From NCBI GenBank assembly GCA_021734025.1, contig JAIPJS010000017.1, positions 6,165 to 70,164 on the forward strand: DNA of 64,000 nucleotides. Direction: 5' to 3'. Positions 20,483 to 35,249 of this stretch are shown piece by piece (the stretch's first letter is position 1; the number at the start of each line of letters is the position of its first letter). The DNA comes from Fidelibacterota bacterium. Its GTDB lineage: Bacteria > Fidelibacterota > JAANXI01. The notes under the pieces are model-generated. The model searched no databases and was not told where the DNA came from. It worked only from the letters and a program-made list of their open reading frames with translations. The position numbers were made by a program, and so were the translations under genes.

Positions 20483-20550
20483 CGATAACACCATAACACA
20501 ATTACACAGTTTTAACTTAAACACTTGAACACCTGAACACACTAACACTG
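20483..20550 (+). repeat. tandem octamer NNRAACAC module upstream of start codon
   Basis: GATAACAC CATAACAC .. TTAAACAC TTGAACAC CTGAACAC ACTAACAC, ending 17 nt before the ATG at 20568. Confidence 0.6.
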
Positions 20551-21635: not shown

Positions 21636-21674
21636 GTCATTCCGAGCGGAACGGAGTGGAGCCGAGGAATCTCG
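21636..21674 (+). repeat. mosaic intergenic repeat R1 (GTCATTCCGAGCG..GGAATCTCG), copy A
   Basis: Near-identical to 34989-35027; related copy at 31264-31312. Confidence 0.6.
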
Positions 21675-21759
21675 CAAATGAATTTCAGGGGTAAAATTGA
21701 TGCGCCCTTTCCTCATCGCAATAATATGTTCGTCGCGGCGAATTGCGAGGCTCTTCTTT

Positions 21760-21788
21760 GGTAGCCTTTGAATTTCATTCAAAGGCGG
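21760..21788 (+). repeat. palindromic repeat R5 (GGTAGCCTTTGAATTTCATTCAAAGGCGGA)
   Basis: Perfect hairpin CCTTTGAAT-TTC-ATTCAAAGG; second copy with 2 mismatches at 39517-39546. Confidence 0.55.
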
Positions 21789-21999
21789 ATTTTACCGGAT
21801 AAAGCCGGAAAATTTGGTTGGCGACTGTGAATTAGAATGACCCTTTCAGGGTCTCGACCCCTGAAAGGGTCGGTAGCAAATAAGGAAACTCAATGCCATT
21901 CAGTCTTTGCGGCCCAGGTGATCCGTTTGTTAAGAGGGAGAACTCGAGAAATCTAGTCTGAACACATCGGGAATGAAGTGAAAAACTAAAAAACAAGAA

Positions 22000-22221
22000 G
22001 TAGAGACGTAGCATTCAGGTTGTGTGAAAACGAAAAATCAAATAAAAAGTGAATGCTGGGCACCGGTTTGTTCTTCCAGTAGAGACGTTCCATGGAACGT
22101 CTCTACAATCAACAATATCAATGGGTTACTGTATATTATTTTGCAGAGAGGATTTTCCGGAATCAAGAGAAAAAAATCTCTTGACAAAAAATTCTCACAC
22201 AGCCTCCGTGGTACGTCTCTA
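22000..22221 (+). repeat. MITE-like structured element, copy A (about 220 bp with long terminal inverted repeats and internal hairpins)
   Basis: Ends TAGAGACGTAGCATTCAGGTTGTGTGAAAA / TTCTCACACAGCCTCCGTGGTACGTCTCTA are inverted repeats; internal perfect hairpin 22079-22106; homologous to 34393-34627. Confidence 0.55.
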
Positions 22222-22237
22222 GTCTACCATTAACTTT

Positions 22238-23119
22238 TCAGTCCTCCCGACACGTCTCCGCCACATCCTCAAATGTAAACAGCCGGGAGTGAATCGCCGG
22301 ATGATCGACGCCAAGCCGGTCGAAGCCATCGCCGCCAACGTACAGCCGGATATCATATTTCTGGCATTGCTCATAGAGATAGTTAATCTCAAACTGGATC
22401 ATATTGATATCCTGGATATATGTGCTGGAAACGTAGAGCCGGTCAATATTAACCTCGCTGAAGATCTTTTCGATGTTGAAGAGCGGGGTAATCTGTCCGC
22501 TGAACAGTACCCGATATCCGTGCTCCTCCAGAATATGATCCACCATCTTGATGGCAATGTCATGCAGCTCCGATGAGAAATTAAGGCAAAAAGCTGTTCC
22601 CTTTTTCTGCGGGGGAATCTTGATCGATCCCTGGAGCCGGATAATACTGTCCCGGATGGTCTGCGACGCAAAGTGCTCCCCGATGACGGATAATTGATCA
22701 TTCTCCCAGAGATGGCCGATCTCGTGCAGTGCTGGCGTGAGAACTTTGTCATAAATCCGGTGCAGCGGATGCTGTCCCAGGTAGAGGCCGTTCAGGATTT
22801 TCTGAATTTTTTCGCGGTTTTTGTCCAGGGCGAGGTCAAGTATTTGCCCAGACAAGTATTCATAGTCGCCTTTAATAATGTGGTAGCTCGTCTCCAGATC
22901 CGATTCGGTTTCGATGGGGAAAAGGTTGGCTTTCTGGATTTTTTCCTCATTGCGCTCAAGAAAGTCCGCCAGATGCTCCGGCAGGAATTTCCGGTGCCCC
23001 CCGGCTGTCCGGATGCACTCCAGCTTCCCGTCATCCGTCCACCGTTTGATGCTGGACACATGCACTCCAAGGATATTGCTCACCTCTTCGCTGGTAAAGT
23101 ATTTCATCTCACTCGACAC
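22238..23119 (-). CDS. MerR/excisionase-type HTH regulator with B12-binding-like C-terminal domain (LitR/CarH-like light-responsive regulator)
   Basis: N-terminal HTH (..EEVSNILGVHVSSIKRWTDDGKLECIRTAGGHRKF..); C-terminal Rossmann-like cobalamin-binding-type region with GEH and VGGDGF motifs; divergent from a carotenoid operon. Confidence 0.7.
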   Translation of the reverse strand: MSSEMKYFTSEEVSNILGVHVSSIKRWTDDGKLECIRTAGGHRKFLPEHLADFLERNEEKIQKANLFPIETESDLETSYHIIKGDYEYLSGQILDLALDKNREKIQKILNGLYLGQHPLHRIYDKVLTPALHEIGHLWENDQLSVIGEHFASQTIRDSIIRLQGSIKIPPQKKGTAFCLNFSSELHDIAIKMVDHILEEHGYRVLFSGQITPLFNIEKIFSEVNIDRLYVSSTYIQDINMIQFEINYLYEQCQKYDIRLYVGGDGFDRLGVDHPAIHSRLFTFEDVAETCRED

Positions 23120-23202
23120 AACATTTCTCCTAATTTAATTCTCCGTAAGATACTTTTACGCGAGACCAGAGTCAAATATTTTGAGCGTTATGAACTTTTT
23201 TC

Positions 23203-23231
23203 TTGACGTATAATGATTTTAAATGTATTAT
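23203..23231 (+). promoter_or_regulatory. sigma70-like promoter TTGACG-N17-TATTAT for the carotenoid operon
   Basis: -35 TTGACG 23203-23208, 17-nt spacer, -10 TATTAT 23226-23231; about 55 bp upstream of the 23285 start. Confidence 0.5.
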
Positions 23232-23234
23232 CTA

Positions 23235-23251
23235 AACGCTCAAAACGCTCA
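23235..23251 (+). promoter_or_regulatory. direct repeat AACGCTCA-A-AACGCTCA just downstream of the -10 (candidate operator for the adjacent regulator)
   Basis: Two AACGCTCA copies at 23235-23242 and 23244-23251; inverted copy TGAGCGTT at 23182-23189. Confidence 0.35.
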
Positions 23252-23284
23252 TAAAATTTTTGAAGGAGCGAAAACGGAGAAAGA

Positions 23285-23866
23285 ATGAGAAGACGGATAA
23301 TTAAATCGATAATGGTGGTAATGGCCGGAATAACCTGTCTTGCCGGACTGACTAAAGCACAGGATGTCCCGGAGGATTCCCTGTTGCACCGAGGCCGGAA
23401 TTTGTTCTATACAGCCGTGGAGAGTGAAGTTGCGCTGGATTCCGCTCAAGCGGCGTTTAAACAATTGCTCTCCGAATATTCTCAGGAATACGGAGGCCGT
23501 GCCCAAACCTACATCGGCGCCCTCACCGCACTCCGGGGCAAGCACGCTCTCTGGCCGCAGAAGAAATACAAATATGTCATGGAGGGAATTGACCAGATGG
23601 AGTCCGGCGTCGCTGCCAATCCGAATGATATCGAATCACTCTTTATATACGGTTCAACCTGCTATCACCTGCCGAGTTTCTTCGGCAAAAGCAAAGAGGC
23701 GCAAGAGGCATTCAGGCAGATAGTAGCTCTCCTGCCGGAGCATGCGGATCAATATGACGCGGATATGATGGAAAACGTCATTGAATTCCTGCGAGCCAAC
23801 GCCAATCTGGATTCCAGTGACATGATGACCCTCAGTACAATTGCCAAGGAACTCGGAAACGGATGA
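23285..23866 (+). CDS. hypothetical secreted protein, first gene of the carotenoid operon
   Basis: GGAG RBS; signal peptide (..MVVMAGITCLAGLTKAQD); helical, no recognisable catalytic motif; stop overlaps next start (ATGA). Confidence 0.6.
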   Translation: MRRRIIKSIMVVMAGITCLAGLTKAQDVPEDSLLHRGRNLFYTAVESEVALDSAQAAFKQLLSEYSQEYGGRAQTYIGALTALRGKHALWPQKKYKYVMEGIDQMESGVAANPNDIESLFIYGSTCYHLPSFFGKSKEAQEAFRQIVALLPEHADQYDADMMENVIEFLRANANLDSSDMMTLSTIAKELGNG

Positions 23867-24561
23867 TCTACGAATATCTCATATTTAACGCGATTGTGGC
23901 AGCCGGCCCGGTGGCGCTCAGTTTTGAGCGAACGGTGCGGTACGTGACGAAGTGGCGGGCTGCCATCATCGCTTCTGTAACAGCGGCGCTCCCGTTCCTT
24001 CTCTGGGATCTGCTGGTCGCCGGCAAGCACTGGCAGTTCAGCGAGGATCACACCCTGGCATCTCTGGGATTCCTGCTGCCGCCGGGGGAGATACTGTTTT
24101 TCCTCACCGTCCCGTTCGCCTGTCTCTTCATCTGGGAAGTACTCCGGAAAAGGGAATGGGCCTTGCTGAAAAGGACTTCCTTAATTTACCCGATATTTTA
24201 TGCAATCGGTGCGGCTGGAATACTCTTTCTCATTGTCACTTCCAGAGATTACACGGCGCTCGTGCTGATAACCATCGGTGTTGTGGCGCTGGCGGACCGA
24301 TTCTCTGGTGCACAATTGTTAACACAAAAGGTGACTTACACGTTTTTAGCCATCGTTACGGGACTCATTTTAGTGTTTAACGGATACCTCACCGCCCGGC
24401 CGGTGGTGCTGTACAATCCGGACGTCCTCTCAGGACTTAAAATTTTCACTATTCCGGTGGAGGATTTCCTCTACGGCTACGGCCTTATTTTGTTGGTAAC
24501 GGTTATATACACAAGAACAACCCACACGAACACTACACCCAATCACGGAGAAAACCAATGA
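23863..24561 (+). CDS. lycopene cyclase domain protein (fused CrtYcd-type)
   Basis: Membrane protein with two copies of the PxE(E/D) lycopene-cyclase motif (LPPGEILFFL and IPVEDFLYGYG). Confidence 0.7.
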   Translation: MIYEYLIFNAIVAAGPVALSFERTVRYVTKWRAAIIASVTAALPFLLWDLLVAGKHWQFSEDHTLASLGFLLPPGEILFFLTVPFACLFIWEVLRKREWALLKRTSLIYPIFYAIGAAGILFLIVTSRDYTALVLITIGVVALADRFSGAQLLTQKVTYTFLAIVTGLILVFNGYLTARPVVLYNPDVLSGLKIFTIPVEDFLYGYGLILLVTVIYTRTTHTNTTPNHGENQ

Positions 24562-26057
24562 AACGAGCAGTCATAATCGGAGCGGGCTTTGGCGGACTGG
24601 CAACGGCTATCCGTTTGCAGTCGCGGGGCTACCGCACTACGCTTCTGGAAAAGAATGCAAAAGTCGGGGGACACGCCTACCAGCTGAAGCGGGACGGCTA
24701 CACCTTCGACATGGGACCGTCGTTGATCACCGCACCGGATATTATCCAGGGTGTATTCAGTTCCGCCGGGAAACGGATGGAGGACTATCTGGATCTGACC
24801 AAACTGGATCCGTTCTACCGGATCTATTATCACGACGGAACTTATCTGGATTACACGGACGATTCCGACGATATGAAGCGTCAGATGGCGCAATTCAATC
24901 CCGGGGATGCAGAAAACTACGACGAATTCATCAACGAATCCCGGGAACTCTACAACGCCGTGATCACCGACGGGCTCGGTTCGACGCCGTTCCAGGACTG
25001 GGGCACCATGCTGGAATTTTTACCGCGAGCATTGAAGCTGAAGGCCCTCCTGCCGGCTCACACGTTCGTCAAACGTCATTTTAAAGATCCGCGGCACCGG
25101 TTTGCGTTTTCGTTTCATCCGTTGTTTATCGGCGGGAGTCCGTTTCGGGCTCCTTCAGTCTACTTGATGATCCCGTACCTGGAGAAAACCGGCGGCGTCT
25201 GGTTCAGCAAGGGGGGCATGTACAGCCTGGTGGAAGCGTTCGCCAAAGTATTCACCGAATCCGGCGGCACCATTCACACCAATTCGCCTGCCACAGAGAT
25301 CGTAGTGGAGGACGGAAAGGCTGTAGGAGTCCGGACGGACGATAACTTCTACCACGCTGACGTAGTGGTCTCAAACGCTGACTTTGCGCATACCTATCGC
25401 AACTTGGTAAAGCCGGAGCACCGATCGAAATGGTCGGATCGCAAGGTGGAAAAAATGGACTATTCCATGAGCGCCTTTCTCCTGTATCTGGGTGTGAAAA
25501 AGCAGTATCCCAAACTGAAGCACCACACTCTGATACTCTCGGAACGTTACAAAGAACTTGTGAAGGACATTTTTGACAGGAAGATTCTGCCGGACGATTT
25601 CTCCATGTACCTGCACGTGCCGACCCGCACCGATTCTGAGATGGCGCCGGAAGGAGCCGAAAGTATGTACGTGCTGATTCCGGTAGCCAATCTCGATAGC
25701 GGCATTGATTGGGAAGAGATGAAGCAGACGTACGCCGATAAAATCCTCCAATTCCTGGAGGAAGATTTCGGCTTGGAGGACCTGCGCACCAACATCGAGG
25801 TGCAGGAAATTTTTACTCCCAAGGATTTTCAGGAGCAACGAAATTCCCATCTCGGCAGCGCCTGGGGCGTGGAGCCGAAGCTCACCCAGACGGCGATTTT
25901 CCGCCCCCATAACCGCAGCGATGATATCGGCGGACTTTACTTTGTTGGCGCCAGCACCCACCCCGGCGCAGGCGTCCCGGGCGTCCTGCTGACGGCGGAG
26001 GCCACGGAGAATGCCATTCTGGAAGATATACGAAAAAATCAACTGAAAACCACGTGA
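24558..26057 (+). CDS. crtI: phytoene desaturase
   Basis: N-terminal FAD dinucleotide-binding motif (AVIIGAGFGGLATA..); overall amine-oxidase fold; adjacent to crtB. Confidence 0.85.
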   Translation: MKRAVIIGAGFGGLATAIRLQSRGYRTTLLEKNAKVGGHAYQLKRDGYTFDMGPSLITAPDIIQGVFSSAGKRMEDYLDLTKLDPFYRIYYHDGTYLDYTDDSDDMKRQMAQFNPGDAENYDEFINESRELYNAVITDGLGSTPFQDWGTMLEFLPRALKLKALLPAHTFVKRHFKDPRHRFAFSFHPLFIGGSPFRAPSVYLMIPYLEKTGGVWFSKGGMYSLVEAFAKVFTESGGTIHTNSPATEIVVEDGKAVGVRTDDNFYHADVVVSNADFAHTYRNLVKPEHRSKWSDRKVEKMDYSMSAFLLYLGVKKQYPKLKHHTLILSERYKELVKDIFDRKILPDDFSMYLHVPTRTDSEMAPEGAESMYVLIPVANLDSGIDWEEMKQTYADKILQFLEEDFGLEDLRTNIEVQEIFTPKDFQEQRNSHLGSAWGVEPKLTQTAIFRPHNRSDDIGGLYFVGASTHPGAGVPGVLLTAEATENAILEDIRKNQLKTT

Positions 26058-26064
26058 GGCCATC

Positions 26065-26979
26065 ATGAAAAAGTACTGGAAATCCGGGGAAAACAGGGTC
26101 GCCTTCGAGCACGCCAGAGATCTGACGGCGCATCACTCCAAGTCGTTTTATCTCTCCACCCGGCTGCTCCCGGAGGAAAAGCAGTGGGCCACGTTCGGCC
26201 TGTACGGTTTTTGTCGCTATGCCGATAATCTCATCGATAATCCCAGGGATCGGTCGGCAGACGAGCTAATCCGAGAAGTGGACTACCTGCACGAGGAACT
26301 CAGCATCGCGTATCGAACCGGCGAATCCGAGCATCCGATACTCCGCCCGTTTATCGCCGTGGCCAAGCGGTACGGGATTCCGGAGAAATATCCCAGAGAT
26401 TTGCTCCTGGGCGTCCGGATGGATCTGGAAATCGATCGCTATAAAACGTTCGACGAACTCTACCTGTTTGCCTATCGCGTTGCCGGTGTGGTGGGATTGA
26501 TGATGACTTCCGTGTTGGGCTACAAGGACGAGGCGGCATTTGAGTACGCAGAGAAATTGGGCATTGCCATGCAGCTGACCAATATCCTCCGGGACGTCCG
26601 CGAGGACGCCGAACGTGGCCGTATCTATCTGCCACAGGATGAACTGAAGCAGTTCGGCGTTTCCGGGCAAGCTATCCTCCGGGGAGAAATGTCGCCTGAA
26701 TTTCGGGAATTGATGCAGTTTCAGGTGGATCGGGCGCACCGGTATTACCGCGAGGCCAATCCCGGCATCAACATGCTGGCGACCAACGCCCAGTTTGCCA
26801 TCCATTCGGCAAGCAAAATCTATCGGGGAATTCTCCGGAAAATTGAAGCTCAGAATTACGATCCCTTCCAGGGACGGGTATTCGTCCCGCAGATCCAGAA
26901 GTTCGGCATCCTGATCCAGGAAGTGGTGCGAACCAAAGTCCTGGTGGCCCAGGAACGGCTTCTCCCGGCAGGAACCTAA
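26065..26979 (+). CDS. crtB: phytoene synthase
   Basis: Squalene/phytoene synthase family segments (..YCRYADNLIDN.., ..YAYRVAGVVGLMMT..). Confidence 0.85.
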   Translation: MKKYWKSGENRVAFEHARDLTAHHSKSFYLSTRLLPEEKQWATFGLYGFCRYADNLIDNPRDRSADELIREVDYLHEELSIAYRTGESEHPILRPFIAVAKRYGIPEKYPRDLLLGVRMDLEIDRYKTFDELYLFAYRVAGVVGLMMTSVLGYKDEAAFEYAEKLGIAMQLTNILRDVREDAERGRIYLPQDELKQFGVSGQAILRGEMSPEFRELMQFQVDRAHRYYREANPGINMLATNAQFAIHSASKIYRGILRKIEAQNYDPFQGRVFVPQIQKFGILIQEVVRTKVLVAQERLLPAGT

Positions 26980-26997
26980 GGATTTGGGAGACAAGAA

Positions 26998-28847: not shown

Positions 28848-28889
28848 TTTTAATCACAAATCATGAAGATATTGGTAAAAAGGAAAGTG

Positions 28890-31229
28890 ATGATGAAACG
28901 TATTTCGATAATATTTGCAGCCGTTCTGGGGATAACAGTTACTGGTGTACAGCATACGCATGCCCAGCAGACCGGCGTCATTCAGGGCACTGTGGTGGAT
29001 GCCAAAACCCAGGAGCCGCTCATCGGTGTAAACGTGGTCGTGGTGGATACCGACCTCGGGGCATCTACCGATATGGAAGGCTTTTACCGCATAACGGGCG
29101 TGCCGATCGGTACCGAGCGGCTCCGTTTTTCTTATATCGGATATGAAACACTTCTCCGGACGGACGTCATCGTCACCCGCAACAAACCGGCGCAGGAGAA
29201 CGCCGAACTCCAGCCGCAGGCAGTAGAGGGAGAAGAGGTCGTTGTGACCGCAGGTTATTTTGAGGAATTGCGAAAAGCCCAGACCAGCAAGATCCAACTC
29301 TCCAAGGAAGAGATTCGACGGTTTCCCGGTGGCTTCGAGGATGTGGTGCGAACGGTGGCAGCCCTGCCGGGAGTAGCCATAAATAACGATGGTGGCAGAA
29401 ACGACTTGCTGGTGAGGGGCGGCGGCCCGTCGGAAAATTTATACCTGATCAATAATATAGAAATCCCCAACATTAATCATTTTGGCTCCCAGGGGACGGG
29501 AAGCGGCTCCCTGAGTTTTATCAACCTGGATTTTGTGGATAAAGTGGACTTCTCCACCGGCGGATTCAGCGCGCAATACGGAGACAAGATGAGCTCTGTG
29601 CTGGCGCTGGATATGGCCGACGGACGGGAAGACCGGTTCGGGAGTAAGGTTTTAGTTTCCGCTACACAGTACGGGCTAAATGCCGAAGGTCCGCTGGGTA
29701 ACGATGGCAATTTCATCTACTCCATCCGTCGGAGCTACCTGGATCTCATTTTCGAGGCCAACGGACTGCCGTTCGTTCCGACATATACCGACTGGAATTT
29801 CGTCGCCAATTACGATGTGACACCTACGGATAAACTCTTTGTGTTGGGTATCGGCGCCTACGACGAAGTCAACCGGGATCAGAGCACCCTGGAGAGCCGG
29901 GTGTTCAACGCAGGTATTATGGACAATTCGCAGAACCGCTGGATCGGCGGACTGAACTACCGCCATCTGCTGGGCAGCGGGTATCTGGATTTCACCTTGA
30001 GTAACAATTATACGGATTTCCAGTTCAGCCAGGTGGATTCAGTCCAGACGGAATATTTTCGCAGCGAAGCTACCGAAGTGGAGACGAACCTGAAGTTGCA
30101 ACATTACTGGCGGCTGAGTAACAGTGTGAACCTGCTGAGCGGCGCATCGGTCAAGGATGTCCGGAATGAGAACACCACTACTTTCGCAGATACCATATAC
30201 AACCGGAACGGCGATCAGGTGCCGGTGAATTCGCTGGGCATACCGCAGCGGCTGGAGGAGAATTCCGACGCATTCAAGAACGCGCTCTTCTCGGAGATTC
30301 AATGGAAAATCACACCAAAATTGGAAGTTTCAACAGGCATCCGGGCGGATATTTACACCTTCCTGGATCAGCCATGGTACGTGGCGCCGCGATTCAAGAT
30401 GCGGTACGCGTTTAATGAGGTATTCAGCCTGAAATCCAGCGCCGGGATTTACTATCAGGCGCCCTCGTACGTCTGGGTGATCAACGATGTGAATACCCAG
30501 CTGAAGGCGCTGCGGAATAACATGGCGGTGGTCGGATTCGACTATCTGCTCGATGAGGATCTGCGGCTTTCGGTAGAATCCTATTACAAGGATTACCAGG
30601 ATCTACCCACCGGCGCCACACCCGGCACCGATTATCTGGTGATTACAAACACCGGCACCGGGTTCGGCGGACGGGAGAACGATTTCCAGTCCTTCGGCTA
30701 TTTTCCCATGGAATCAACAGCGTACGGCCACGCCTACGGATTCGAATTGTTTCTGCAGAAAAAATACTCCGAGGTGCCACATTACGGGAAGGCTAGTCTG
30801 ACTTACAGCAAGAGTGAATTCACTGCCGGCAACGGCAGGGTGCAGCCCGGCGAATTCGACCAGCGCTGGATCTTCAACCTGTACGGCGGATACAAGTTTA
30901 ACGCGGATTGGGAAATGAGCGGCAAATTCCGGTTCTTCACCGGCGCACCGTATACGCCGGTATATCGGCCATCGGAGAACGGCGGGGAGATTCAGAATCT
31001 GCCGGAAGAATACCTGTCGAAGCGACTCGAACCGGGACATCATCTGGACGTTCGGCTGAATCGGTACTGGAATTTTGAGAGCTGGACATTCATCGCATTC
31101 ATCGATATTCAGAACATCTACAACAATCGGATCCAGGTACGGCCGCGCTACGACTTCTGGGAGGACGAAGTCGTTGACCGGCAGGGCATCGGGATTTTGC
31201 CGTCGATTGGACTCAGCGCGGAGTTGTAG
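28890..31229 (+). CDS. TonB-dependent receptor-like outer-membrane protein with N-terminal carboxypeptidase-regulatory-like domain
   Basis: Signal peptide; CarbopepD_reg-like segment (GTVVDAKTQEPLIGVNVVVVDTDLGASTDMEGFYRI), plug-like region, long beta-barrel region; start chosen at internal ATG after AGGA RBS. Confidence 0.7.
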   Translation: MMKRISIIFAAVLGITVTGVQHTHAQQTGVIQGTVVDAKTQEPLIGVNVVVVDTDLGASTDMEGFYRITGVPIGTERLRFSYIGYETLLRTDVIVTRNKPAQENAELQPQAVEGEEVVVTAGYFEELRKAQTSKIQLSKEEIRRFPGGFEDVVRTVAALPGVAINNDGGRNDLLVRGGGPSENLYLINNIEIPNINHFGSQGTGSGSLSFINLDFVDKVDFSTGGFSAQYGDKMSSVLALDMADGREDRFGSKVLVSATQYGLNAEGPLGNDGNFIYSIRRSYLDLIFEANGLPFVPTYTDWNFVANYDVTPTDKLFVLGIGAYDEVNRDQSTLESRVFNAGIMDNSQNRWIGGLNYRHLLGSGYLDFTLSNNYTDFQFSQVDSVQTEYFRSEATEVETNLKLQHYWRLSNSVNLLSGASVKDVRNENTTTFADTIYNRNGDQVPVNSLGIPQRLEENSDAFKNALFSEIQWKITPKLEVSTGIRADIYTFLDQPWYVAPRFKMRYAFNEVFSLKSSAGIYYQAPSYVWVINDVNTQLKALRNNMAVVGFDYLLDEDLRLSVESYYKDYQDLPTGATPGTDYLVITNTGTGFGGRENDFQSFGYFPMESTAYGHAYGFELFLQKKYSEVPHYGKASLTYSKSEFTAGNGRVQPGEFDQRWIFNLYGGYKFNADWEMSGKFRFFTGAPYTPVYRPSENGGEIQNLPEEYLSKRLEPGHHLDVRLNRYWNFESWTFIAFIDIQNIYNNRIQVRPRYDFWEDEVVDRQGIGILPSIGLSAEL

Positions 31230-31263
31230 GATAGGGAATGGGGCAATTATGTAGTTCAGCTGA

Positions 31264-31312
31264 GTCATCATCCCGAGCGGAGGTTCTTCAGAACCGAAGC
31301 CGAGGGATCTCG
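31264..31312 (+). repeat. mosaic repeat R1-related copy
   Basis: GTCATCATCCCGAGCGG..CCGAGGGATCTCG related to 21636-21674 and 34989-35027. Confidence 0.45.
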
Positions 31313-31342
31313 TCAATTACACTGGGTGGTTTAAATTTCCGG

Positions 31343-31405
31343 CAAAGTAACACTTACCTCAAAGAGATCCCTGTGGGACAGAGGGCAAGACCTGGAAGGG
31401 TCGAT
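31343..31405 (+). repeat. repeat R3 copy 1 (..GTAACACTTACCTCAAAGAGATCCCTGTGGGACAG..)
   Basis: About 60-nt element repeated at 31567-31630 and in reverse orientation around 35128-35190. Confidence 0.6.
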
Positions 31406-31434
31406 AAAATTGGGAGATGAAAAACCAGGTTCAA

Positions 31435-31500
31435 CCTGTCATTTCGACCGAAGTGAACCTTTGGTTTTTAAAAGGTGAACGAAGCGGAAAAATCTCGTGA
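31435..31500 (+). repeat. repeat R2 (66 nt), copy 1
   Basis: CCTGTCATTTCGACCGAAGTGAACCTTTGGTTTTTAAAAGGTGAACGAAGCGGAAAAATCTCGTGA; second copy at 34651-34716 with 3 mismatches. Confidence 0.75.
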
Positions 31501-31566
31501 AAATCCAATAGGAATGGAAAAATAATTCAAATATTCCGGGATGACTTGCACTTTTTTTCTTGAGTG

Positions 31567-31630
31567 CAAAGTAACACTTACCTCAAAGAGACCCCTGTGG
31601 GACAGGGGTTAAGACCCTGGAAGGATCGGT
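31567..31630 (+). repeat. repeat R3 copy 2, ending 20 nt before the 31650 start
   Basis: Contains perfect hairpin ACCCCTGTGGGACAGGGGT. Confidence 0.6.
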
Positions 31631-31649
31631 TATACAAAGAAAGTGAAAA

Positions 31650-32294
31650 ATGAAGCATAAAATTAAACTCACTACCCTCTACCTCCTCCTCGGCGCCGGC
31701 GGACTCTGGCACTTGCTGGGATTGTTTCAGTCAGCGATGGCCTGGCTAGCCGGGCCGTTGCTGATTGGACTCGGTGTCTGGACTGCATGGGAGTGGTATC
31801 ACACATTATCTGAAAATCAGCGATGGCGGTATATAGGTTGGGCAACGTTCGTGATCGCGGGGAGTTTTCTCCTGGAGTGGATCGGCGTAAAAACCGGAGT
31901 GGTCTTCGGCGAGTACCATTACGGCACTGTACTTCAACCGCAAGTCGCCGGAGTGCCGGTCGCCATCGGCTTTGCCTGGCTGACGGTGATGCTCTCTTCG
32001 ACCGCTGTGGTCGGGAGGCTTCGATCCGGAATGCGGGGATGGGGACTGGTAATCGGTGGAGCGCTCTTTATGGTGACATTTGATGTGATATTAGAACTAG
32101 CCGCAATGAAACTCGGCTACTGGGAGTGGGAAGGCGTGCTGGTTCCGATACGGAATTATGTTGCCTGGTTTGCGGGCGGACTCATCTTCCTTTCCATTGG
32201 AGACCTGCTCAAGATTTTTCCGTCAAAAATTCCAAAGATTTTGATGCATATGTATTTTGCCCAGATATTGTATTTTGGGTTGGCGCTGATTTAA
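31650..32294 (+). CDS. carotenoid biosynthesis membrane protein (CruF-like, candidate carotenoid 1,2-hydratase)
   Basis: 214 aa polytopic membrane protein in a carotenoid gene neighbourhood; family assignment by context and architecture only. Confidence 0.45.
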   Translation: MKHKIKLTTLYLLLGAGGLWHLLGLFQSAMAWLAGPLLIGLGVWTAWEWYHTLSENQRWRYIGWATFVIAGSFLLEWIGVKTGVVFGEYHYGTVLQPQVAGVPVAIGFAWLTVMLSSTAVVGRLRSGMRGWGLVIGGALFMVTFDVILELAAMKLGYWEWEGVLVPIRNYVAWFAGGLIFLSIGDLLKIFPSKIPKILMHMYFAQILYFGLALI

Positions 32295-32307
32295 TAATTT
32301 TATAGAG

Positions 32308-32772
32308 GTGACTTTGAAAGTTTACAATATGGATGAAACGCAGGTATTGCCGATTTCTCTCGACGTGGCGTGGGATTTTTTCTCGGATCCGGCCAACCTG
32401 GAGGAAATTACGCCTCCGTGGCTGAAGTTCAGCATACAATCGCATGACGAGGGGGAGATGTATCCCGGAATGCTTATCCGGTACAAGGTCACCGCGCTGT
32501 TCGGCATTCCGATGAACTGGATCACCGAAATCACCCAGGTGAGGGAAGGGGAATACTTCATCGACGAGCAGCGGTTCGGTCCGTACAGGTTCTGGTATCA
32601 TCAGCATCATTTCAGCGAGGTTGAAAACGGGACGAAAATCAGGGATATTCTCCACTATGGACTGCCGTTTGGGATAATTGGAAGAATTGTACACGCAGTC
32701 AAAGTGAAGGGACAATTGCGGGAGATTTTTGAATATAGACACCGGATTTTGCGGGAACGATTTGGAGAATAA
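32308..32772 (+). CDS. SRPBCC domain protein
   Basis: 154 aa; ..VAWDFFSDPANLEEITPPWL.. typical of SRPBCC fold; GTG start. Confidence 0.7.
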   Translation: MTLKVYNMDETQVLPISLDVAWDFFSDPANLEEITPPWLKFSIQSHDEGEMYPGMLIRYKVTALFGIPMNWITEITQVREGEYFIDEQRFGPYRFWYHQHHFSEVENGTKIRDILHYGLPFGIIGRIVHAVKVKGQLREIFEYRHRILRERFGE

Positions 32773-32781
32773 TTGCGCTGT

Positions 32782-32808
32782 TTGGGGCTGAAGCCCCATT
32801 TGTTTTGT
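32782..32808 (+). terminator. rho-independent terminator candidate
   Basis: Hairpin GGGGCT-GA-AGCCCC followed by T-rich ATTTGTTTTG; second hairpin CCCCGCCATAGATGGCGGGG at 32818-32838. Confidence 0.45.
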
Positions 32809-32966
32809 GCCATTTAACCCCGCCATAGATGGCGGGGCTAGTCAATTTTGTCGCTATTCATTCATATGAATAGCCCCGGGCTTTCCCAAAGGGATCTCCA
32901 TGAGGCAGCCCGGGGATAAAGATAAACTACAAATGATTGGCCCATTAAGGCTATTGTCGCAACGAA

Positions 32967-34334
32967 ATGCAATCCAAAATCCACCCGAACCGAATTCAGC
33001 GATTAAACAACAAGAGCATCAGTCCGGACGGCTCGTACGTCCTCTACTGGATGCAGGCCTCTCAGCGGGCGGAGTGGAATCACGCGCTGGAGTATGCCAT
33101 CGAACGAGCAAACGCGATGGAAAAGCCGCTCATCGTGGTCTTCGGGATCACCGATGATTATCCCGACGCTAACGAGCGGCACTACGCGTTCATGCTTCAG
33201 GGCTTGCAGGAGGCACAGCAATCGCTCGCTGAACGCGGCATCCGAATGGTCATCCGGCACCAGCCGCCGGCAAGGGCGGCCATAGCATTTGCCAGAGATG
33301 CCGTTCTCGTCGTCACCGATCGAGGGTACCTCCGGTTCCAGCGGGTATGGCGGAGCGAGGTTGCGGAAAGTATCGAAATACCGCTGATTCAGGTGGAGAC
33401 AGGCGTCATTGTCCCGGTAGAAGTCGCCTCGGAGAAGCGGGAATACGCCGCCCGCACGATCCGACCAAAGATTCACCGGCATCTGGAGGAGTACCTGAAG
33501 CCCGTCGAACCGGTGGTATTGCATCACCACTCACTGGACATCAAATTTGAGTCCTTTGCCATAGATGATGTGGAGTCGGCACTTGCCAGCCTGGATATCG
33601 ATCCGAGTGTTCCACCAGTTGGTACTTTCACCGGCGGAACTTCGGAAGCGAAGAAACATCTCCGGGAATTCATCGAAAACAGGTTGGATCAATATGATAA
33701 CCTGCGAAACGATCCCACGAAGGAGTATCTCTCCAATATGAGCCCCTATCTGCAATTTGGGCAGATTTCGCCGCTCTATATTGCGATGCAGGTTGAGGAA
33801 ACCGAAAGTCCCGGAAAGGAGTCATACCTGGAAGAGTTAATCATCCGCCGGGAACTGAGTATGAATTTCTGCTATTATGACGAGAACTATGACAATTTTG
33901 AGTGTCTTCCGGGGTGGGCGAAGAAATCACTGGATAAGCACGCCGATGACGAGCGCGAATATCTCTACTCTCTAGAGGAGTTCGAAAACGCCAAGACCCA
34001 CGACCCGTACTGGAACGCCGCGCAAATGGAGATGGTGAAGACCGGCAAAATGCACGGCTACATGCGGATGTACTGGGGCAAGAAGATCCTGGAGTGGTCG
34101 GAGTCACCGCAGGAGGCGTACCAGATAGCCATCTTTCTCAACAACACGTACGAATTGGACGGCCGGAATCCCAACGGCTACGCCGGCGTGGCCTGGTGCT
34201 TCGGGAACCACGACCAGGGCTGGAAGGAACGACCTGTGTATGGCAAGGTGCGCTATATGAACGCGAACGGATTAAAGCGCAAGTTTGATGCGGAGGGGTA
34301 TGTGGAGAAGGTTAAAAGAATGGCACGCAGATGA
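32967..34334 (+). CDS. deoxyribodipyrimidine photolyase, class II CPD photolyase type
   Basis: Recalled class II photolyase signatures: ..YVLYWMQASQRAEWNHAL.., ..RNDPTKEYLSNMSPYLQFGQIS.., ..KTHDPYWNAAQMEMVKTGKMHGYMRMYWGKKILEWSESPQEA.. Confidence 0.85.
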   Translation: MQSKIHPNRIQRLNNKSISPDGSYVLYWMQASQRAEWNHALEYAIERANAMEKPLIVVFGITDDYPDANERHYAFMLQGLQEAQQSLAERGIRMVIRHQPPARAAIAFARDAVLVVTDRGYLRFQRVWRSEVAESIEIPLIQVETGVIVPVEVASEKREYAARTIRPKIHRHLEEYLKPVEPVVLHHHSLDIKFESFAIDDVESALASLDIDPSVPPVGTFTGGTSEAKKHLREFIENRLDQYDNLRNDPTKEYLSNMSPYLQFGQISPLYIAMQVEETESPGKESYLEELIIRRELSMNFCYYDENYDNFECLPGWAKKSLDKHADDEREYLYSLEEFENAKTHDPYWNAAQMEMVKTGKMHGYMRMYWGKKILEWSESPQEAYQIAIFLNNTYELDGRNPNGYAGVAWCFGNHDQGWKERPVYGKVRYMNANGLKRKFDAEGYVEKVKRMARR

Positions 34335-34392
34335 CGTGGAAAAAACGGATGACCACGGATTAATAGATTTGGTTAAACTAGATCAAGATGTA

Positions 34393-34627
34393 ACGACGTA
34401 ACATGCAGGGTGTGTGAAAATACGCAAGGGAACAATTGTGAGTAATCATCACATATTCCTTCTGGTAGAGACGTTTCTTGCCTGTCCCGAGATGTCGGGG
34501 GAAACGTCGCTACATACAATAGTAACAATGGCTTATCGAAGATTTTTATCGAGTGGGATTTCACTACGCTCAGAGGAAAAAATTCCTTGACAATGCATTC
34601 TCACACTGCCTCCATGCTATGTCTCTA
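34393..34627 (+). repeat. MITE-like structured element, copy B
   Basis: Homologous to 22000-22221 with shared terminal blocks and internal hairpins; compensatory changes in one stem (AGAGA/TCTCT versus AGGAA/TTCCT). Confidence 0.55.
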
Positions 34628-34650
34628 CTGCTTCCACTCATCTAATATTA

Positions 34651-34716
34651 CCTGTCATTTCGACCGAAGTGAGCCTTTGGTTTTTAAAAGGTGAACGAAG
34701 CGGAGAAATCTCGTGA
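34651..34716 (+). repeat. repeat R2, copy 2
   Basis: 66-nt near-identical copy of 31435-31500. Confidence 0.75.
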
Positions 34717-34988
34717 GTTAGACCGGAGATTCCGCTTCAACAGAACAACCCTTCATTTCCGGCTACACGATTTGTTGTCCCTTCCACACTCGGGGACTCT
34801 AATGATGGTGAATGGAGTCTCAAGAATGTGAGACGGAAAATAATTCAAATAGCCCGGAGTGCAGTGATATTGGCGGAATCCCTGGCGGTGAAAATGCCGA
34901 TTAAATTACGAGTTTCCTTAATCCTTGGCTTCCTCCGATAAAACGGTTTTCGCCAGAAATTAGAAAATATTAAAAGCAAAAAGTATAA

Positions 34989-35100
34989 GTCATTCCGAGC
35001 GAAACGAAGTGGAGTCGAGGAATCTCGTAAAGCCAACCTCTTGAGAGACAACCACGAGATCCTTCGACTCCCCCGACAAGTCGGGGTCGCTCAGGATGAC
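34989..35100 (+). repeat. 112-bp imperfect palindrome (R1 full element)
   Basis: 5' arm GTCATTCCGAGCGAAACGAAGTGGAGTCGAGGAATCTCG pairs with 3' arm CGAGATCCTTCGACTCC..TCGCTCAGGATGAC; internal hairpin CCCCGACAAGTCGGGG. Confidence 0.65.
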
Positions 35101-35202
35101 TGGTATTGTTTTCGACTGTATTCTTATGATCCTTTCAGGGCCTCGAGCACTGTCCCACAGGGATCTCTTTGAGGAAAGGGTCTGATAATACACGAGGAGA
35201 AT

Positions 35203-35238
35203 AACCGTCGGTGAGCCCTCTCAGGGTCACCGACGGTT
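35203..35238 (-). terminator. rho-independent terminator candidate for the M3 peptidase gene
   Basis: Perfect 11-bp-stem hairpin ACCGTCGGTGA..TCACCGACGGT 12 bp downstream of the minus-strand stop, followed on the minus strand by a short U-rich stretch. Confidence 0.5.
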
Positions 35239-35249
35239 ATCTTCGAAGT

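What the first reader, a model, noticed from the sequence alone, without database searches (positions are those of the whole stretch)
21636..35190. Mosaic palindromic repeats bracket and partition the light island
Three long repeat-rich intergenic regions (21009-22237, 31230-31649, 34335-35249) share several modules in mixed order and orientation: R1 (GTCATTCCGAGCG..GGAATCTCG, forming a 112-bp near-palindrome at 34989-35100), R2 (66 nt, 3 mismatches between 31435-31500 and 34651-34716), R3 (about 60 nt, two direct copies plus one inverted), R5 (also at 39517) and R6. They lie at the left edge, middle and right edge of the carotenoid/photolyase island. Such elements could be recombination scars from island assembly, REP/BIME-like insulators or terminators, or regulatory RNAs.
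Basis: seen in the sequence. Interest (0 to 1): 0.55.

Follow-up and report, generated by a model that had tools for sequence, protein, structure and literature searches.

The report
Mobile hairpin repeats filling intergenic gaps
Three unusually long gaps between genes around a light-protection gene cluster of a Marinimicrobia genome are packed with small hairpin-forming repeats of already known kinds (REP elements of HUH transposases and the hairpin targets of small GIY-YIG single-strand DNA nucleases); they invaded an old, stably inherited gene cluster and are not scars of island assembly.

Summary
The "island" premise fails. In relatives with 52-87% identical proteins the same genes flank the carotenoid/photolyase cluster on both sides. 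Their corresponding gaps are far shorter: 1 nt or one extra gene instead of 1229 bp, a 4-nt overlap or 287 bp instead of 420 bp, and 156 bp instead of 915 bp. The repeats are therefore later invaders.

R1 and R2 are one family (A, six copies): YGTC tag, AT-led stem, tandem G·A mismatches, variable inner hairpin, invariant C after the stem. It occurs in more than 15 phyla with strong stem covariation. It flanked all three small GIY-YIG nuclease genes I looked up. That makes it a G·A-mismatch relative of the Neisseria NTS/dRS3 hairpins cut by the ssDNA nuclease SsnA.

The GTAGAGACG...CGTCTCTAC palindrome is a 28-nt "double-foot" REP. R5 is a canonical GTAG REP. R3 and R6 are the repeats that flank, and sit in frame inside, a RAYT-like HUH transposase gene in a likely related (unconfirmed) metagenome contig. 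A 230-250 bp MITE-like composite occurs twice.

Verdict: REP/BIME-like (NIME-like) mosaic clusters, new members of known kinds. A role in termination or recombination is untested.

The parts
21009..22237 (.). IGR1: 1229-bp gap between the convergent SRPBCC gene (20568-21008 +) and the CarH/LitR-like MerR-B12 regulator gene (22238-23119 -).
   Evidence: ORFs and Pfam. In relative L251 (regulator 86% identical) the two stop codons are 1 nt apart. In L250 a DUF1614 gene sits there. No DUF1614 remnant was found in IGR1.
21636..21674 (+). A1: family-A hairpin (Ssn-related, CGTC/NTS-type), 39-nt form without an inner hairpin.
   Evidence: Pattern match. Model R1: 39.8 bits, E = 5.6e-11.
21761..21785 (+). 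R5a: canonical REP, a 5' GTAG foot plus a 9-bp hairpin (GTAG CCTTTGAAT TTC ATTCAAAGG).
   Evidence: ssDNA fold -9.6 kcal/mol, z = -5.9.
21839..21871 (.). R6: palindrome GACCCTTTCAGGGTCTCGACCCCTGAAAGGGTC, a RAYT-associated repeat.
   Evidence: 13-bp arms, 100% complementary. The same unit lies upstream of, and in frame inside, a RAYT-like gene in L263, and in the orthologous IGR2 of L243.
21994..22222 (+). M1: MITE-like composite with roughly 30-nt terminal inverted repeats that begin GTAGAGACGT, and a central 28-nt double-foot REP.
   Evidence: Inverted arms 22001-22030 and 22192-22221. Alignment to M2, 79% identical. ssDNA fold z = -6.2.
22079..22106 (.). B1: perfect 28-nt double-foot REP GTAGAGACGTTCCATGGAACGTCTCTAC.
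   Evidence: z = -7.0. Same architecture as the Chloroflexus aggregans RAYT subclass 2.4 REP GTAGAGACGCACGGCCGTGCGTCTCTAC (PMC6006769 Table S1). 127 of 152 matches in viral contigs are 28 nt.
31230..31649 (.). IGR2: 420-bp gap inside the crt operon, between the TonB-dependent receptor gene and the CruF-like (Caroten_synth) gene.
   Evidence: The two genes overlap by 4 nt in L245. The gap is 287 bp in L243.
31267..31312 (+). A2: degenerate family-A hairpin (ATC instead of the GTC tag; inner hairpin GGTTC-TTCA-GAACC).
   Evidence: Model R1: 37.8 bits, E = 2.7e-10.
31342..31407 (+). C1: family-C unit, which is R6 carrying a roughly 22-nt nested insert.
   Evidence: Alignment with the unit downstream of the L263 RAYT-like gene.
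31438..31497 (+).
   Evidence: R1: 30.2 bits, E = 1.3e-7.
31566..31627 (+). C2: family-C unit, 92-97% identical to C1.
34335..35249 (.). IGR3: 915-bp gap between the convergent photolyase gene (32967-34334 +) and the M3 peptidase gene (35250-37343 -).
   Evidence: The orthologous gap in L243 is 156 bp with a single plain hairpin.
34384..34630 (+). M2: second copy of the MITE-like composite. Its central palindrome (34465-34513) carries a nested 23-nt hairpin insert in the loop (34478-34500).
34654..34713 (+). A4: family-A hairpin. With 3-4 nt of flank on each side it forms the 67-nt repeat 34650-34716, 97% identical to 31434-31500 around A3.
   Evidence: R1: 36.7 bits.
34989..35027 (+). A5: family-A hairpin, left half of the tail-to-tail doublet.
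   Evidence: R1: 39.1 bits.
35055..35100 (-). A6: family-A hairpin, right half of the doublet (inner hairpin CCCCGAC-TTG-TCGGGG).
   Evidence: R1: 42.6 bits, E = 5.8e-12. Doublet fold z = -4.5.
35124..35181 (-). C3: family-C unit in inverted orientation.
   Evidence: Inverted-repeat pairs I1 and I2. Alignment.
39518..39542 (+). R5b: second copy of the GTAG-foot REP. It lies outside the cluster, between the DcuC and HD-OB genes.

Best explanation
The three gaps are REP/BIME-like mosaic clusters, of the kind called NIMEs in Neisseria. Several families of small, non-coding, hairpin-forming repeats accumulated in dispensable spacer DNA at the ends of transcription units of an old, vertically inherited CarH-controlled carotenoid/photolyase cluster in a Marinimicrobia genome.

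The families belong to two known enzyme-linked repeat systems.

It has a YGTC tag, a 5-bp stem that starts A-T/T-A, tandem G·A mismatches, a G-C/C-G pair, a variable inner hairpin, and an invariant C just after the stem. It is a G·A-mismatch relative of the Neisseria NTS/dRS3 and "CGTC-tagged REP" hairpins. Those hairpins are bound and cut, as ssDNA only, by small GIY-YIG nucleases (SsnA) whose genes they typically flank.

(2) The 28-nt double-foot palindrome B, R5, R6 and family C (R3) are REPs of the kind cut and rejoined as ssDNA by REP-associated HUH-Y1 transposases (RAYTs). A 230-250 bp composite with B-type ends behaves like a MITE.

Shown here: the repeats exist; the family-A stem covaries; the family occurs across phyla; it sits next to small GIY-YIG genes; a RAYT-like gene is flanked by R6/C units and carries an R6 unit inside it; the repeats are absent from the orthologous gaps of relatives.

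Inferred: the repeats spread through ssDNA intermediates made by such enzymes encoded elsewhere in this genome, with some local duplication between the three gaps. Any effect on transcripts or on recombination would be a by-product.
For: Repeats and their significance.

Family A structure
- In 137 matches from 120 genome stretches, the three free stem positions are perfectly complementary in 126, using 7 different combinations. The S/S pair is complementary in 135.
- On a 28-sequence alignment, 93.6% of cells are paired against 82.7% in shuffles and 22-48% when the partner is slid. 30 cells have changes on both sides against 9.4 in shuffles.
- The base before GTCAT is T or C in 125 of 137 matches.

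Taxonomic spread: Acidobacteriota, Chloroflexota, Planctomycetota, Bacillota, Actinomycetota, Pseudomonadota, Bacteroidota, Gemmatimonadota, Armatimonadota, Verrucomicrobiota, candidate phyla radiation (CPR) lineages and others.

Enzyme link for family A
- Three of three small (93-95 aa) GIY-YIG genes that I looked up are flanked within 60 nt on both sides by family-A units, pointing inward as in NTS-ssnA-NTS. One sits in a cluster of about 20 units.
- The model that finds the window copies also finds those units (24-34 bits).
- P0245 has Y6, Y17 and E64, the residues mutated in N. meningitidis SsnA (PMC11893778).
- Published properties match: a GTC upstream of the stem is needed for cleavage, the C after the palindrome is crucial for binding, loop content is free, and the enzyme is active on ssDNA only.
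- CGTC REPs are described with a CGTC/TGTC tag and stems that begin with AT (PMC3733652).

REPs
- B1 equals the 28-nt double-foot REP type of RAYT subclass 2.4. It is widespread, and its inner 10 nt vary while staying self-complementary.
- R5 is a GTAG foot plus hairpin.

Later invasion of an old cluster: synteny and gap sizes in relatives, comparable protein identities inside and outside the cluster, and no family-A hit in about 60 kb of relatives' loci.
Against: - No ssn or RAYT gene lies within the 83 kb of source genome I could read. Presence of the cognate enzymes in this genome is unproven.
- Within those 83 kb the modules occur only in these gaps, plus R5 at 39.5 kb. Genome-wide dispersal in the source is not shown, and part of the pattern could be local duplication: A3/A4 are 97% identical and lie in a colinear block with 31519-31539 / 34837-34857.
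- Single family-A units are not more stable than shuffled sequence under DNA energy parameters (z = -0.9 to +0.1). The case for the hairpin rests on covariation.
- The published SRM search pattern matches none of the family-A copies.
- R6 and C lack a GT[AG]G foot.
- The Y1_Tnp match of the L263 gene is below Pfam's cut-off (20.9 versus 23 bits), and its match to the solved TnpA-REP structure is not significant (E = 0.34).
- Orientation relative to neighbouring genes, from crude ORF calls, shows no sense bias. It shows only a deficit in divergent gaps (7, against 24 convergent).
Confidence: 0.8

Rival explanations
1. The repeats are recombination scars left when the carotenoid/photolyase "light island" was assembled or inserted by horizontal transfer. 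On this view they mark its edges and an internal junction.
For: The repeats lie at the left end, the middle and the right end of the cluster. Within 83 kb they match only each other.
Against: In L243/L250 the same genes continue on both sides. On the left: SRPBCC, TetR, DUF4097, DUF1295, Rce1-like and others. On the right: M3 peptidase, DcuC, HD-OB, ECF-S. Protein identities are alike inside and outside the cluster. The window has no tRNA, and no integrase domain appears among the genes annotated across about 12-41 kb. There is no GC anomaly. The orthologous gaps are 1 nt, a 4-nt overlap or 287 bp, and 156 bp. The repeat families also occur in unrelated contexts elsewhere.
Confidence: 0.03
2. 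The family-A hairpins have been co-opted as in Neisseria. They bracket the photoprotection genes with tags outward (A1 + ... A6 -). An Ssn nuclease would then cut incoming or exposed ssDNA at them, limiting or patterning recombination and transformation of this cluster.
For: The geometry matches NTS-gene-NTS and the ssn-flanking pairs seen here. NTS repeats cluster non-randomly around particular genes in Neisseria, and the NTS-gene-NTS arrangement lowers transformation (PMC11893778). All six copies in 83 kb lie around this one cluster.
Against: No ssn gene is seen in the source. Competence of Marinimicrobia is unknown. Five of six copies are on one strand and two lie inside the operon. Relatives keep the same cluster without any copy, so the arrangement is not conserved. 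The co-located REP, MITE and C units suggest a general dumping ground.
Confidence: 0.12
3. The hairpins act mainly at the RNA level, as terminators, insulators between transcription units, or 3'-end stabilisers of the light-induced mRNAs, as described for some E. coli REPs.
For: All six family-A units have the same orientation as the gene upstream of them. Two of the three gaps are convergent. REPs in general sit downstream of genes and are thought to be transcribed (PMC3733652). B1, R5, the A5/A6 doublet and the composite fold very stably.
Against: The repeats have no T-tails; only ordinary numbers of terminator-like sites were found. No Rfam match. Across phyla, family A shows no sense bias (22 sense against 31 antisense in co-directional gaps). 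SsnA does not bind the RNA form of NTS. The G·A/G·A asymmetry is also kept next to ssn genes, where a DNA role is documented. Relatives manage without these sequences.
Confidence: 0.15
4. The modules are light-responsive cis-regulatory elements: CarH operators, small RNAs or a B12 riboswitch that coordinate the three transcription units.
For: They lie near a CarH/LitR-type B12 photoreceptor-regulator gene and its target operon.
Against: The likely regulated promoter lies in the 165-bp divergent gap 23120-23284, which has none of the repeats. The modules are absent from the orthologous gaps of relatives with the same regulator. There is no riboswitch or sRNA family match. Family A and family B occur beside unrelated genes in many phyla and in viruses.
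Confidence: 0.03
5. The mosaic arose purely by local segmental duplication and gene conversion among the three gaps, starting from one ancestral terminator-like hairpin. No transposition-like spread was involved.
For: The best match of every module within 83 kb is in another of the three gaps. A3/A4 are 97% identical and colinear with a second short match. R6 occupies the orthologous IGR2 in L243. Its exact 23-mer was found only twice in the metagenome collection.
Against: Modules occur in different orders and orientations, and nested inside one another. R5 has a copy outside the cluster. Families A and B are dispersed in hundreds of unrelated loci, and R6/C surround a RAYT-like gene on another contig. 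That is the signature of mobile repeat families.
Confidence: 0.1

Closest known systems
NTS/dRS3 and Ssn-related motifs (SRM) with the GIY-YIG ssDNA nuclease SsnA (Chenal et al. 2025, PMC11893778)
   Same: An (H)GTC tag lies directly 5' of a hairpin whose stem starts AT, with an invariant C directly 3' of the stem. Loop content is free. The element is strand-specific. Copies flank small (about 94 aa) GIY-YIG genes in inward-facing pairs. Copies cluster around certain genes.
   Different: Family A has tandem G·A mismatches where NTS has C-G pairs, and the tail is CTCG rather than CYRG. The loop often holds an extra hairpin of up to about 40 nt. The published SRM search pattern matches none of the copies. 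No ssn gene is visible in the source DNA available. Cleavage was not tested.
CGTC-tagged REP superfamily (Di Nocera et al. 2013, PMC3733652), including Neisseria dRS3 and Rickettsia RPE-4/6
   Same: A CGTC/TGTC tag, stems of 8-9 positions that begin with complementary A-T and T-A, loops of 4-5 nt in the minimal 28-nt form, a short unpaired tail, and inverted dimers.
   Different: The tail is not CCA. Dimers here are tail-to-tail, whereas head-to-head is said to predominate. The taxonomic range seen here is far wider than the five phyla listed. I could not see that paper's consensus figures.
REP / BIME / REPIN elements and their RAYT (TnpA-REP) HUH-Y1 transposases, especially the double-foot REPs of subclass 2.4 (Quentin et al. 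2018, PMC6006769)
   Same: B1 is 28 nt, with GTAG...CTAC feet and the same conserved base GTAGAGACG/CGTCTCTAC as the listed Chloroflexus REP. R5 is a GTAG foot plus hairpin. [quoted passage not shown] Location is extragenic, in convergent or unidirectional gaps, as mosaic clusters.
   Different: R6 and C lack the GT[AG]G foot. The RAYT-like gene is on another organism's contig, not in the window. Copy number in the source genome is unknown.
Neisserial intergenic mosaic elements (NIMEs)
   Same: Long intergenic regions built from several repeat modules in mixed order, delimited by dRS3-type hairpins. This comparison rests on my own knowledge and on the mention.
   Different: Different organism and different module sequences. 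The Neisseria link to phage integration and antigen genes has no counterpart shown here.
MITEs (miniature inverted-repeat transposable elements)
   Same: The composite M (230-250 bp, two copies) has roughly 30-nt terminal inverted repeats, no coding capacity and a strong fold.
   Different: No target-site duplication could be defined and no parent transposon is known. Its ends and centre are REP-type sequences, so it may be an elaborate REPIN/BIME rather than a classical MITE.

Membership tests
Ssn-related hairpin repeats (NTS/SRM) | An HGTC tag directly 5' of the hairpin, with a stem that begins A-T, T-A | tested here: met
   Five of six window copies read (A/T)GTCAT. A2 is degenerate (ATCAT). 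In 137 copies from other genomes the preceding base is T in 87, C in 38, A in 10 and G in 2.
Ssn-related hairpin repeats (NTS/SRM) | A base-paired stem with a C immediately 3' of the palindrome | tested here: met
   Stem covariation is perfect in 126 of 137 copies, with 7 pair combinations. Paired cells 93.6% against 82.7% in shuffles. All six window copies have ...AT-C. The C was fixed in my search pattern, so its conservation outside the window was not tested independently.
Ssn-related hairpin repeats (NTS/SRM) | Fits the published degenerate SRM search sequence HGTCWYN(0-2)YYVSBRHN(0-5)WNVSBRGN(0-2)RNCYNB | tested here: not met
   The regex matches NTS. It matches none of the six window copies, none of the 137 family-A copies, and none of the units beside the three GIY-YIG genes. 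The G·A mismatch falls on an S position.
Ssn-related hairpin repeats (NTS/SRM) | Copies flank the gene of a small single-domain GIY-YIG nuclease | tested here: met
   This held for three of three genes looked up in other organisms (L264-L270): units within 60 nt on both sides, facing inward, and recognised by model R1. The proteins have PF01541, are 93-95 aa, and P0245 has Y6/Y17/E64. Assignment to CDD family cd10448 could not be run.
Ssn-related hairpin repeats (NTS/SRM) | A cognate ssn gene in the same genome, and cleavage of the top strand as ssDNA | not testable with these tools
   Only 83 kb of the source genome could be read, and it has no homologue. Biochemistry is needed for cleavage.
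REP elements of RAYT transposases | A 5' GT[AG]G foot followed by a hairpin; double-foot types end in C[TC]AC | tested here: met
   Met for B1 (GTAG...CTAC, 28 nt) and for R5a/R5b (GTAG plus a 9-bp stem). Not met for R6 and family C.
REP elements of RAYT transposases | A RAYT gene flanked by the same repeats (REPtron); in subclass 2.4 a REP is also inserted in frame in the gene | tested here: met
   Met for R6/C on contig L263: R6 at 4400-4436, R6 in frame at 4794-4830, a C unit at 5208-5262, around the gene at 4563-5183. The enzyme assignment itself is weak: Y1_Tnp E = 4e-4 and 20.9 bits, below the 23-bit cut-off. For B and R5 the link rests on the literature table only.
REP elements of RAYT transposases | Many copies dispersed through the host genome | tested here: inconclusive
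   In 83 kb of the source, copies lie only in the three gaps plus one R5 copy. The rest of the genome could not be searched.
Genomic-island boundary repeats (att-type) | Direct repeats bounding a block that is absent or differently placed in relatives, usually with an integrase or tRNA | tested here: not met
   Synteny is conserved across both "edges". The window has no tRNA. No integrase appears among the genes annotated across about 12-41 kb. GC content is normal.
Intrinsic terminators | A G+C-rich hairpin followed by a T-run | tested here: not met
   Terminator-like sites are no more frequent than in shuffles in IGR2/IGR3, and about 2 sd above them around IGR1. Only R6 on the minus strand gives a weak hit. 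The A, B, C and R5 units lack T-tails.
Described structured RNA families (Rfam 15) | A covariance-model match | tested here: not met
   No hit at gathering score in the window. No relevant hit at E <= 5 (IGR1) or E <= 2 (31200-35300, which covers IGR2 and IGR3). None at family-A positions in 15 other loci.

The most novel reading that the evidence does not exclude
The G·A-mismatch hairpin (family A) may be a large branch of Ssn-nuclease target sites that spans many phyla and that the published SRM search motif misses. In this genome its copies bracket a photoprotection/DNA-repair cluster with tags outward, as in the NTS-gene-NTS arrangement of Neisseria. If so, an Ssn nuclease cutting ssDNA at these sites would shape recombination or uptake of this cluster. 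That would extend a mechanism known only from Neisseria to free-living marine bacteria.
Probability: 0.12. Interest if true: 0.6.

Novelty: new member of a known kind. Interest (0 to 1): 0.3.

Why it matters
For this window, the result removes a tempting but wrong reading. The repeats do not delimit a transferred "light island". They are late invaders of spacer DNA in a cluster that has kept its neighbours since the split from relatives whose proteins are 52-87% identical. Annotators should mask these units, which otherwise yield spurious small ORFs and break assemblies.

More generally, the work ties a very widespread, easily recognised hairpin (YGTCAT-YYY-GA...GA-RRR-ATCTC) to small GIY-YIG nuclease genes in several lineages. 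It also shows that the search motif published with the Ssn family in 2025 does not capture this variant. The census of Ssn target sites may therefore be incomplete. The covariance model built here could extend it. It could also supply new substrate and enzyme pairs for ssDNA tools.

Tried and rejected
- Rfam searches of the window, the three gaps and 15 other loci found nothing at the repeats.
- Literal-sequence and peptide-string literature searches gave nothing useful. A search for the assembly and run accessions also gave nothing.
- The window has no tRNA or tmRNA.
- An exact 25-mer of family C had no match in the metagenome collection. The R6 23-mer had only two, so dispersal of the lineage-specific modules could not be measured that way.
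- I looked for a protein family that recurs next to family-A copies in 120 loci. Only ABC ATPases recurred, which is uninformative.
- Three motif hunts for small GIY-YIG genes next to those copies found none. The link emerged only when I started from the protein.
- Published REP catalogues for HUH class 3 (CnGA foot, Solibacter) and subclass 2.6 do not contain family A.
- No remnant of the DUF1614 gene that occupies IGR1's place in a relative was found. Small ORFs in IGR1 look like read-through of the repeats.
- The promoter/terminator scan gave no terminator signature for the repeats.
- I first read the short Logan contig that ends at the repeats as a sign of high copy number. I rejected that. 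It ends at the perfect palindrome B1 and inside A3, which within-locus repeats alone explain (and coordinates worked out from it).
- Orientation analysis against crude ORF calls gave no sense bias.

Full report
**What the window is**

The window is part of contig JAIPJI010000005.1 (221 kb) of NCBI assembly GCA_021734225.1. Its source names it "MAG: Candidatus Marinimicrobia bacterium".

Between 19.5 and 41 kb the genes are as follows.
- TetR, then SRPBCC (20568-21008, +).
- A 1229-bp gap (IGR1).
- A CarH/LitR-type MerR-B12 regulator (22238-23119, -).
- A plus-strand operon from 23285 to 31229: an unknown 193-aa protein, lycopene cyclase, CrtI, CrtB, acyltransferase, GT2 glycosyltransferase and a TonB-dependent receptor.
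- A 420-bp gap (IGR2).
- A CruF-like carotenoid protein, a second SRPBCC protein and a photolyase (to 34334).
- A 915-bp gap (IGR3).
- An M3 peptidase on the minus strand, then DcuC, an HD-OB protein and an ECF S-component.

Yes.

I extended the window by about 9.4 kb on each side from the same contig and from a Logan assembly of the same organism. In that 83-kb stretch the three gaps match only each other, plus one R5 copy at 39516-39546.

The three gaps hold about 27% of the intergenic DNA of the stretch. Other sizeable gaps (643, 496, 492, 441 and 437 bp) have none of the modules. They carry only unique hairpins. So the local clustering is real. It is partly circular, though, because these gaps are long precisely because of the repeats.

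Inspection shows that R1 and R2 share a frame: GTCAT-YYY-GA-S-CG [variable] S-GA-RRR-ATCTCG.
- This pattern has 5 matches in the window against 0.00 expected.
- The hits come from Acidobacteriota, Chloroflexota, Planctomycetota, Clostridia, Coriobacteriia, Gamma- and "Delta"-proteobacteria, Bacteroidota, Rhodothermota, Gemmatimonadota, Armatimonadota, Verrucomicrobiota, Dormibacterota, candidate phyla radiation (CPR) lineages and others.

The pattern left YYY and RRR free to combine in 64 ways.
- In 126 of 137 matches they are perfectly complementary, using seven combinations.
- The two S positions are complementary in 135.
- On a 28-sequence alignment, 93.6% of cells pair. That compares with 82.7% in column shuffles and 22-48% when the partner is slid. 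Thirty cells are changed on both sides, against 9.4 in shuffles.

The structure is therefore a 5-bp stem beginning A-T/T-A, a 2x2 loop that reads GA on both strands, one or two G-C pairs, a purine-rich internal loop, and a hairpin of free sequence and length.
- The shortest form is 28 nt, and it occurs in tandem arrays (L088).
- Because GA faces GA rather than TC, only one strand can form the motif, so the functional form is single-stranded.
- Energy calculations alone do not show this: single window units fold no better than shuffles (z = -0.9 to +0.1). The A5/A6 doublet does (z = -4.5).
- A covariance model built only from 45-nt copies of other phyla finds six window copies at 30-43 bits, E = 6e-12 to 1e-7. 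It finds nothing convincing elsewhere in the 83 kb or in about 60 kb of relatives' loci.

**What family A is**

Rfam has no such family, and the REP tables of Quentin et al. do not list it. Two papers supplied the match.

Di Nocera et al. 2013 define "CGTC-tagged" REPs. The tag is CGTC or TGTC, stems of 8-9 positions begin with A-T and T-A, loops are 4-5 nt, and there is a short tail. Neisseria dRS3 is one member (PMC3733652). In my sample the base before GTCAT is T or C in 125 of 137 copies.

Chenal et al. 2025 extend dRS3 to the 28-nt NTS, CGTCATTCCCGCGMAVGCGGGAATCYRG (PMC11893778). They report the following.
- The 94-aa GIY-YIG protein SsnA binds and cuts it as ssDNA only.
- The three bases before the stem matter for cleavage, and the C after the stem matters for binding.
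- The loop can be replaced or extended.
- Thousands of homologues in many phyla are flanked by such hairpins.
- NTS copies cluster around certain genes.

Family A has the GTC, the AT-led stem and the C after the stem.

To test the link, I searched with a roughly 95-aa GIY-YIG consensus written from memory. The query is validated by more than 7,995 hits, the best 120 at 73-81% identity and all with PF01541. I then fetched the DNA around three hits, chosen only for long contigs. All three genes are flanked on both sides by family-A units, within 60 nt.
- L264 has TGTCATTCTGAGTGAAACGAAGAATCTCA 10 nt upstream, and the inverted TGTCATGCTGAGCAAAGCGAAGCATCTCA 5 nt downstream.
- L266 lies in a cluster of about 20 units.
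- The same model scores them at 24-34 bits.
- P0245 has Tyr6, Tyr17 and Glu64, the residues mutated in the Neisseria enzyme.

The published SRM search pattern matches NTS but none of these units, none of the 137 copies and none in the window. The G·A mismatch falls where the pattern requires S. Family A is therefore best described as a G·A-mismatch variant of the Ssn-related hairpins. No ssn gene lies in the 83 kb of source DNA.

**The GTAG-type units**

GTAGAGACGTTCCATGGAACGTCTCTAC (22079-22106) is a perfect 28-nt palindrome (z = -7.0).
- 127 of 152 matches there are exactly 28 nt, with inner decamers that differ but stay self-complementary.
- Quentin et al. 2018 list GTAGAGACGCACGGCCGTGCGTCTCTAC as a "double-foot" REP beside a RAYT subclass 2.4 gene of Chloroflexus aggregans. 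They describe this type as 5' GT[AG]G with C[TC]AC at the 3' end (PMC6006769).
- R5 (21761-21785 and 39518-39542) is a textbook REP: GTAG plus a 9-bp hairpin (z = -5.9).

The other GTAGAGACGT occurrences are the ends of a larger unit.
- 21994-22222 and 34384-34630 align at 79% identity.
- Each has roughly 30-nt terminal inverted repeats and a central double-foot palindrome.
- The second copy carries a 23-nt hairpin nested in the loop.

**R6 and R3 (family C)**

R6 is GACCCTTTCAGGGTCTCGACCCCTGAAAGGGTC (21839-21871). Its 23-mer occurs twice in the JGI metagenome collection.

One site is the orthologous IGR2 of relative L243.

The other, L263, is a different locus.
- It holds a 206-aa gene with HuH (GNHFHLL) and Y (YIHWNP) motifs.
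- R6 lies upstream of the gene.
- R6 also lies inside it, in frame between the two motifs.
- A unit that aligns with family C lies downstream.

The enzyme assignment is only moderately supported. Pfam Y1_Tnp gives E = 4e-4 over the whole domain once the 16 REP-encoded residues are removed, but the score is below the curated cut-off. The solved TnpA-REP structure matches at E = 0.34.

Family C is R6 with a roughly 22-nt nested insert.

**Is it an island?**

No.
- In L243/L244/L250 (regulator 81% identical, CruF-like protein 59%), the gene order is the same through the cluster and beyond it on both sides. The only differences are one extra crtI-like gene and a DUF1614 gene.
- Identities are 54-87% inside the cluster and 68-86% outside it.
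- In L251 (regulator 86% identical), the SRPBCC and regulator stop codons are 1 nt apart.
- In L245 the receptor and CruF-like genes overlap by 4 nt.
- In L243, IGR2 is 287 bp and IGR3 is 156 bp with a single ordinary hairpin.
- None of these loci has a family-A copy.
- The window has no tRNA and no GC anomaly. No integrase was found among the genes annotated across about 12-41 kb.

The long gaps are therefore lineage-specific expansions of spacer DNA in an old cluster. R6-type occupancy of IGR2 may predate the split from L243. That last point is an inference.

**How it most likely works**

Shown:
- hairpin repeats of at least four families;
- strand-specific structure for family A;
- adjacency of family A to small GIY-YIG genes, and of R6/C to a RAYT-like gene;
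- absence of the repeats from orthologous gaps.

Inferred:
- the units spread as ssDNA substrates of such enzymes encoded elsewhere in the genome;
- they settle where insertions are harmless, namely the 3' ends of convergent genes and one operon junction;
- they attract further copies and local duplications, giving nested and mosaic arrangements.

Across phyla the units avoid divergent (promoter) gaps (7, against 24 convergent). They show no sense bias (22 against 31), judged from crude ORF calls.

RNA-level effects and an NTS-like effect on recombination are possible by-products. I rate them at 0.15 and 0.12.

**Verdict**

The finding is a new instance of known kinds. The most interesting by-product is the G·A-mismatch Ssn-related hairpin, which the published search motif does not capture.

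Noticed in passing
window 20487-20548, 37506-37526(-), 37730-37758, 44994-45014, 49065-49093, 56824-56922; also L243 about 15230-15265: Arrays of AACAC repeated every 8 nt (for example AACACTTGAACACCTGAACAC) lie 10-120 nt upstream of gene starts and are oriented with the gene. There are 12 matches against 0.04 expected. The array upstream of DcuC is conserved in the relative L243. This may be a promoter-proximal or leader signal specific to this lineage.
   Followed up: partly
window 20200-20227, 56635-56662, 37541-37572, 37679-37708, 39268-39323; L243 M3-DcuC gap; L245 12624-12948: Low-complexity purine or pyrimidine repeats of the type GGGTATAGGG / GGGAATA (and the complement TAATCCTAATC) recur in several intergenic regions of the window and of both relatives. 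Meaning unknown.
   Followed up: no
window 20280-20312 and 32863-32895; 3' end of L243 IGR2 (about 9950-9990): A further small repeat family, TGAATAGCC followed by a G+C-rich hairpin. It lies in the TetR-SRPBCC gap, upstream of the photolyase gene, and in the relative.
   Followed up: partly
L002 (Logan contig SRR12088347_94269, 9409 bp) versus window 22079 and 31487: An independent assembly of the same organism breaks exactly at the perfect 28-nt palindrome B1 and inside family-A copy A3. These repeats fragment assemblies.
   Followed up: partly
window 34478-34500 and 35067-35088: The hairpin nested in the loop of the second composite's central palindrome (CCCGAGATGTCGGGG) resembles the inner hairpin of A6 (CCCCGACTTGTCGGGG). 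A very small hairpin module may insert into the loops of other repeats.
   Followed up: no
L263 4563-5183 and 5292-6485: The RAYT-like gene that carries an in-frame repeat lies directly upstream of a radical-SAM gene resembling spore-photoproduct lyase, another light-damage repair gene.
   Followed up: no
L250 10901-11581 and L243 1521-3053, compared with window IGR1 and 24558: Gene-content differences from the closest long relative: a DUF1614 gene sits where the window has IGR1, with no remnant detectable in the window. The relative also has an extra CrtI-like desaturase (510 aa) that the window lacks.
   Followed up: partly
viral contigs L123-L242: The 28-nt double-foot palindrome GTAGAGACG-N10-CGTCTCTAC is common in IMG/VR viral contigs (more than 120 contigs, up to three copies each). 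Family A is rare there (10 contigs).
   Followed up: partly
window 41448-41466 (-): A 19-nt mini-hairpin, GTCATCT-N4-AGATCTCG, at the 3' end of, or just downstream of, the ECF S-component gene (40749-41300) is picked up by the family-A model (17.2 bits, E = 0.005). It could be a chance match or a minimal unit.
   Followed up: no
window 23120-23284: The 165-bp divergent gap between the CarH-like gene and the crt operon holds facing sigma-70-like promoters (TTGACG-17-TATTAT at 23203-23231 on the plus strand) and none of the repeats. It is the likely site of light control.
   Followed up: no
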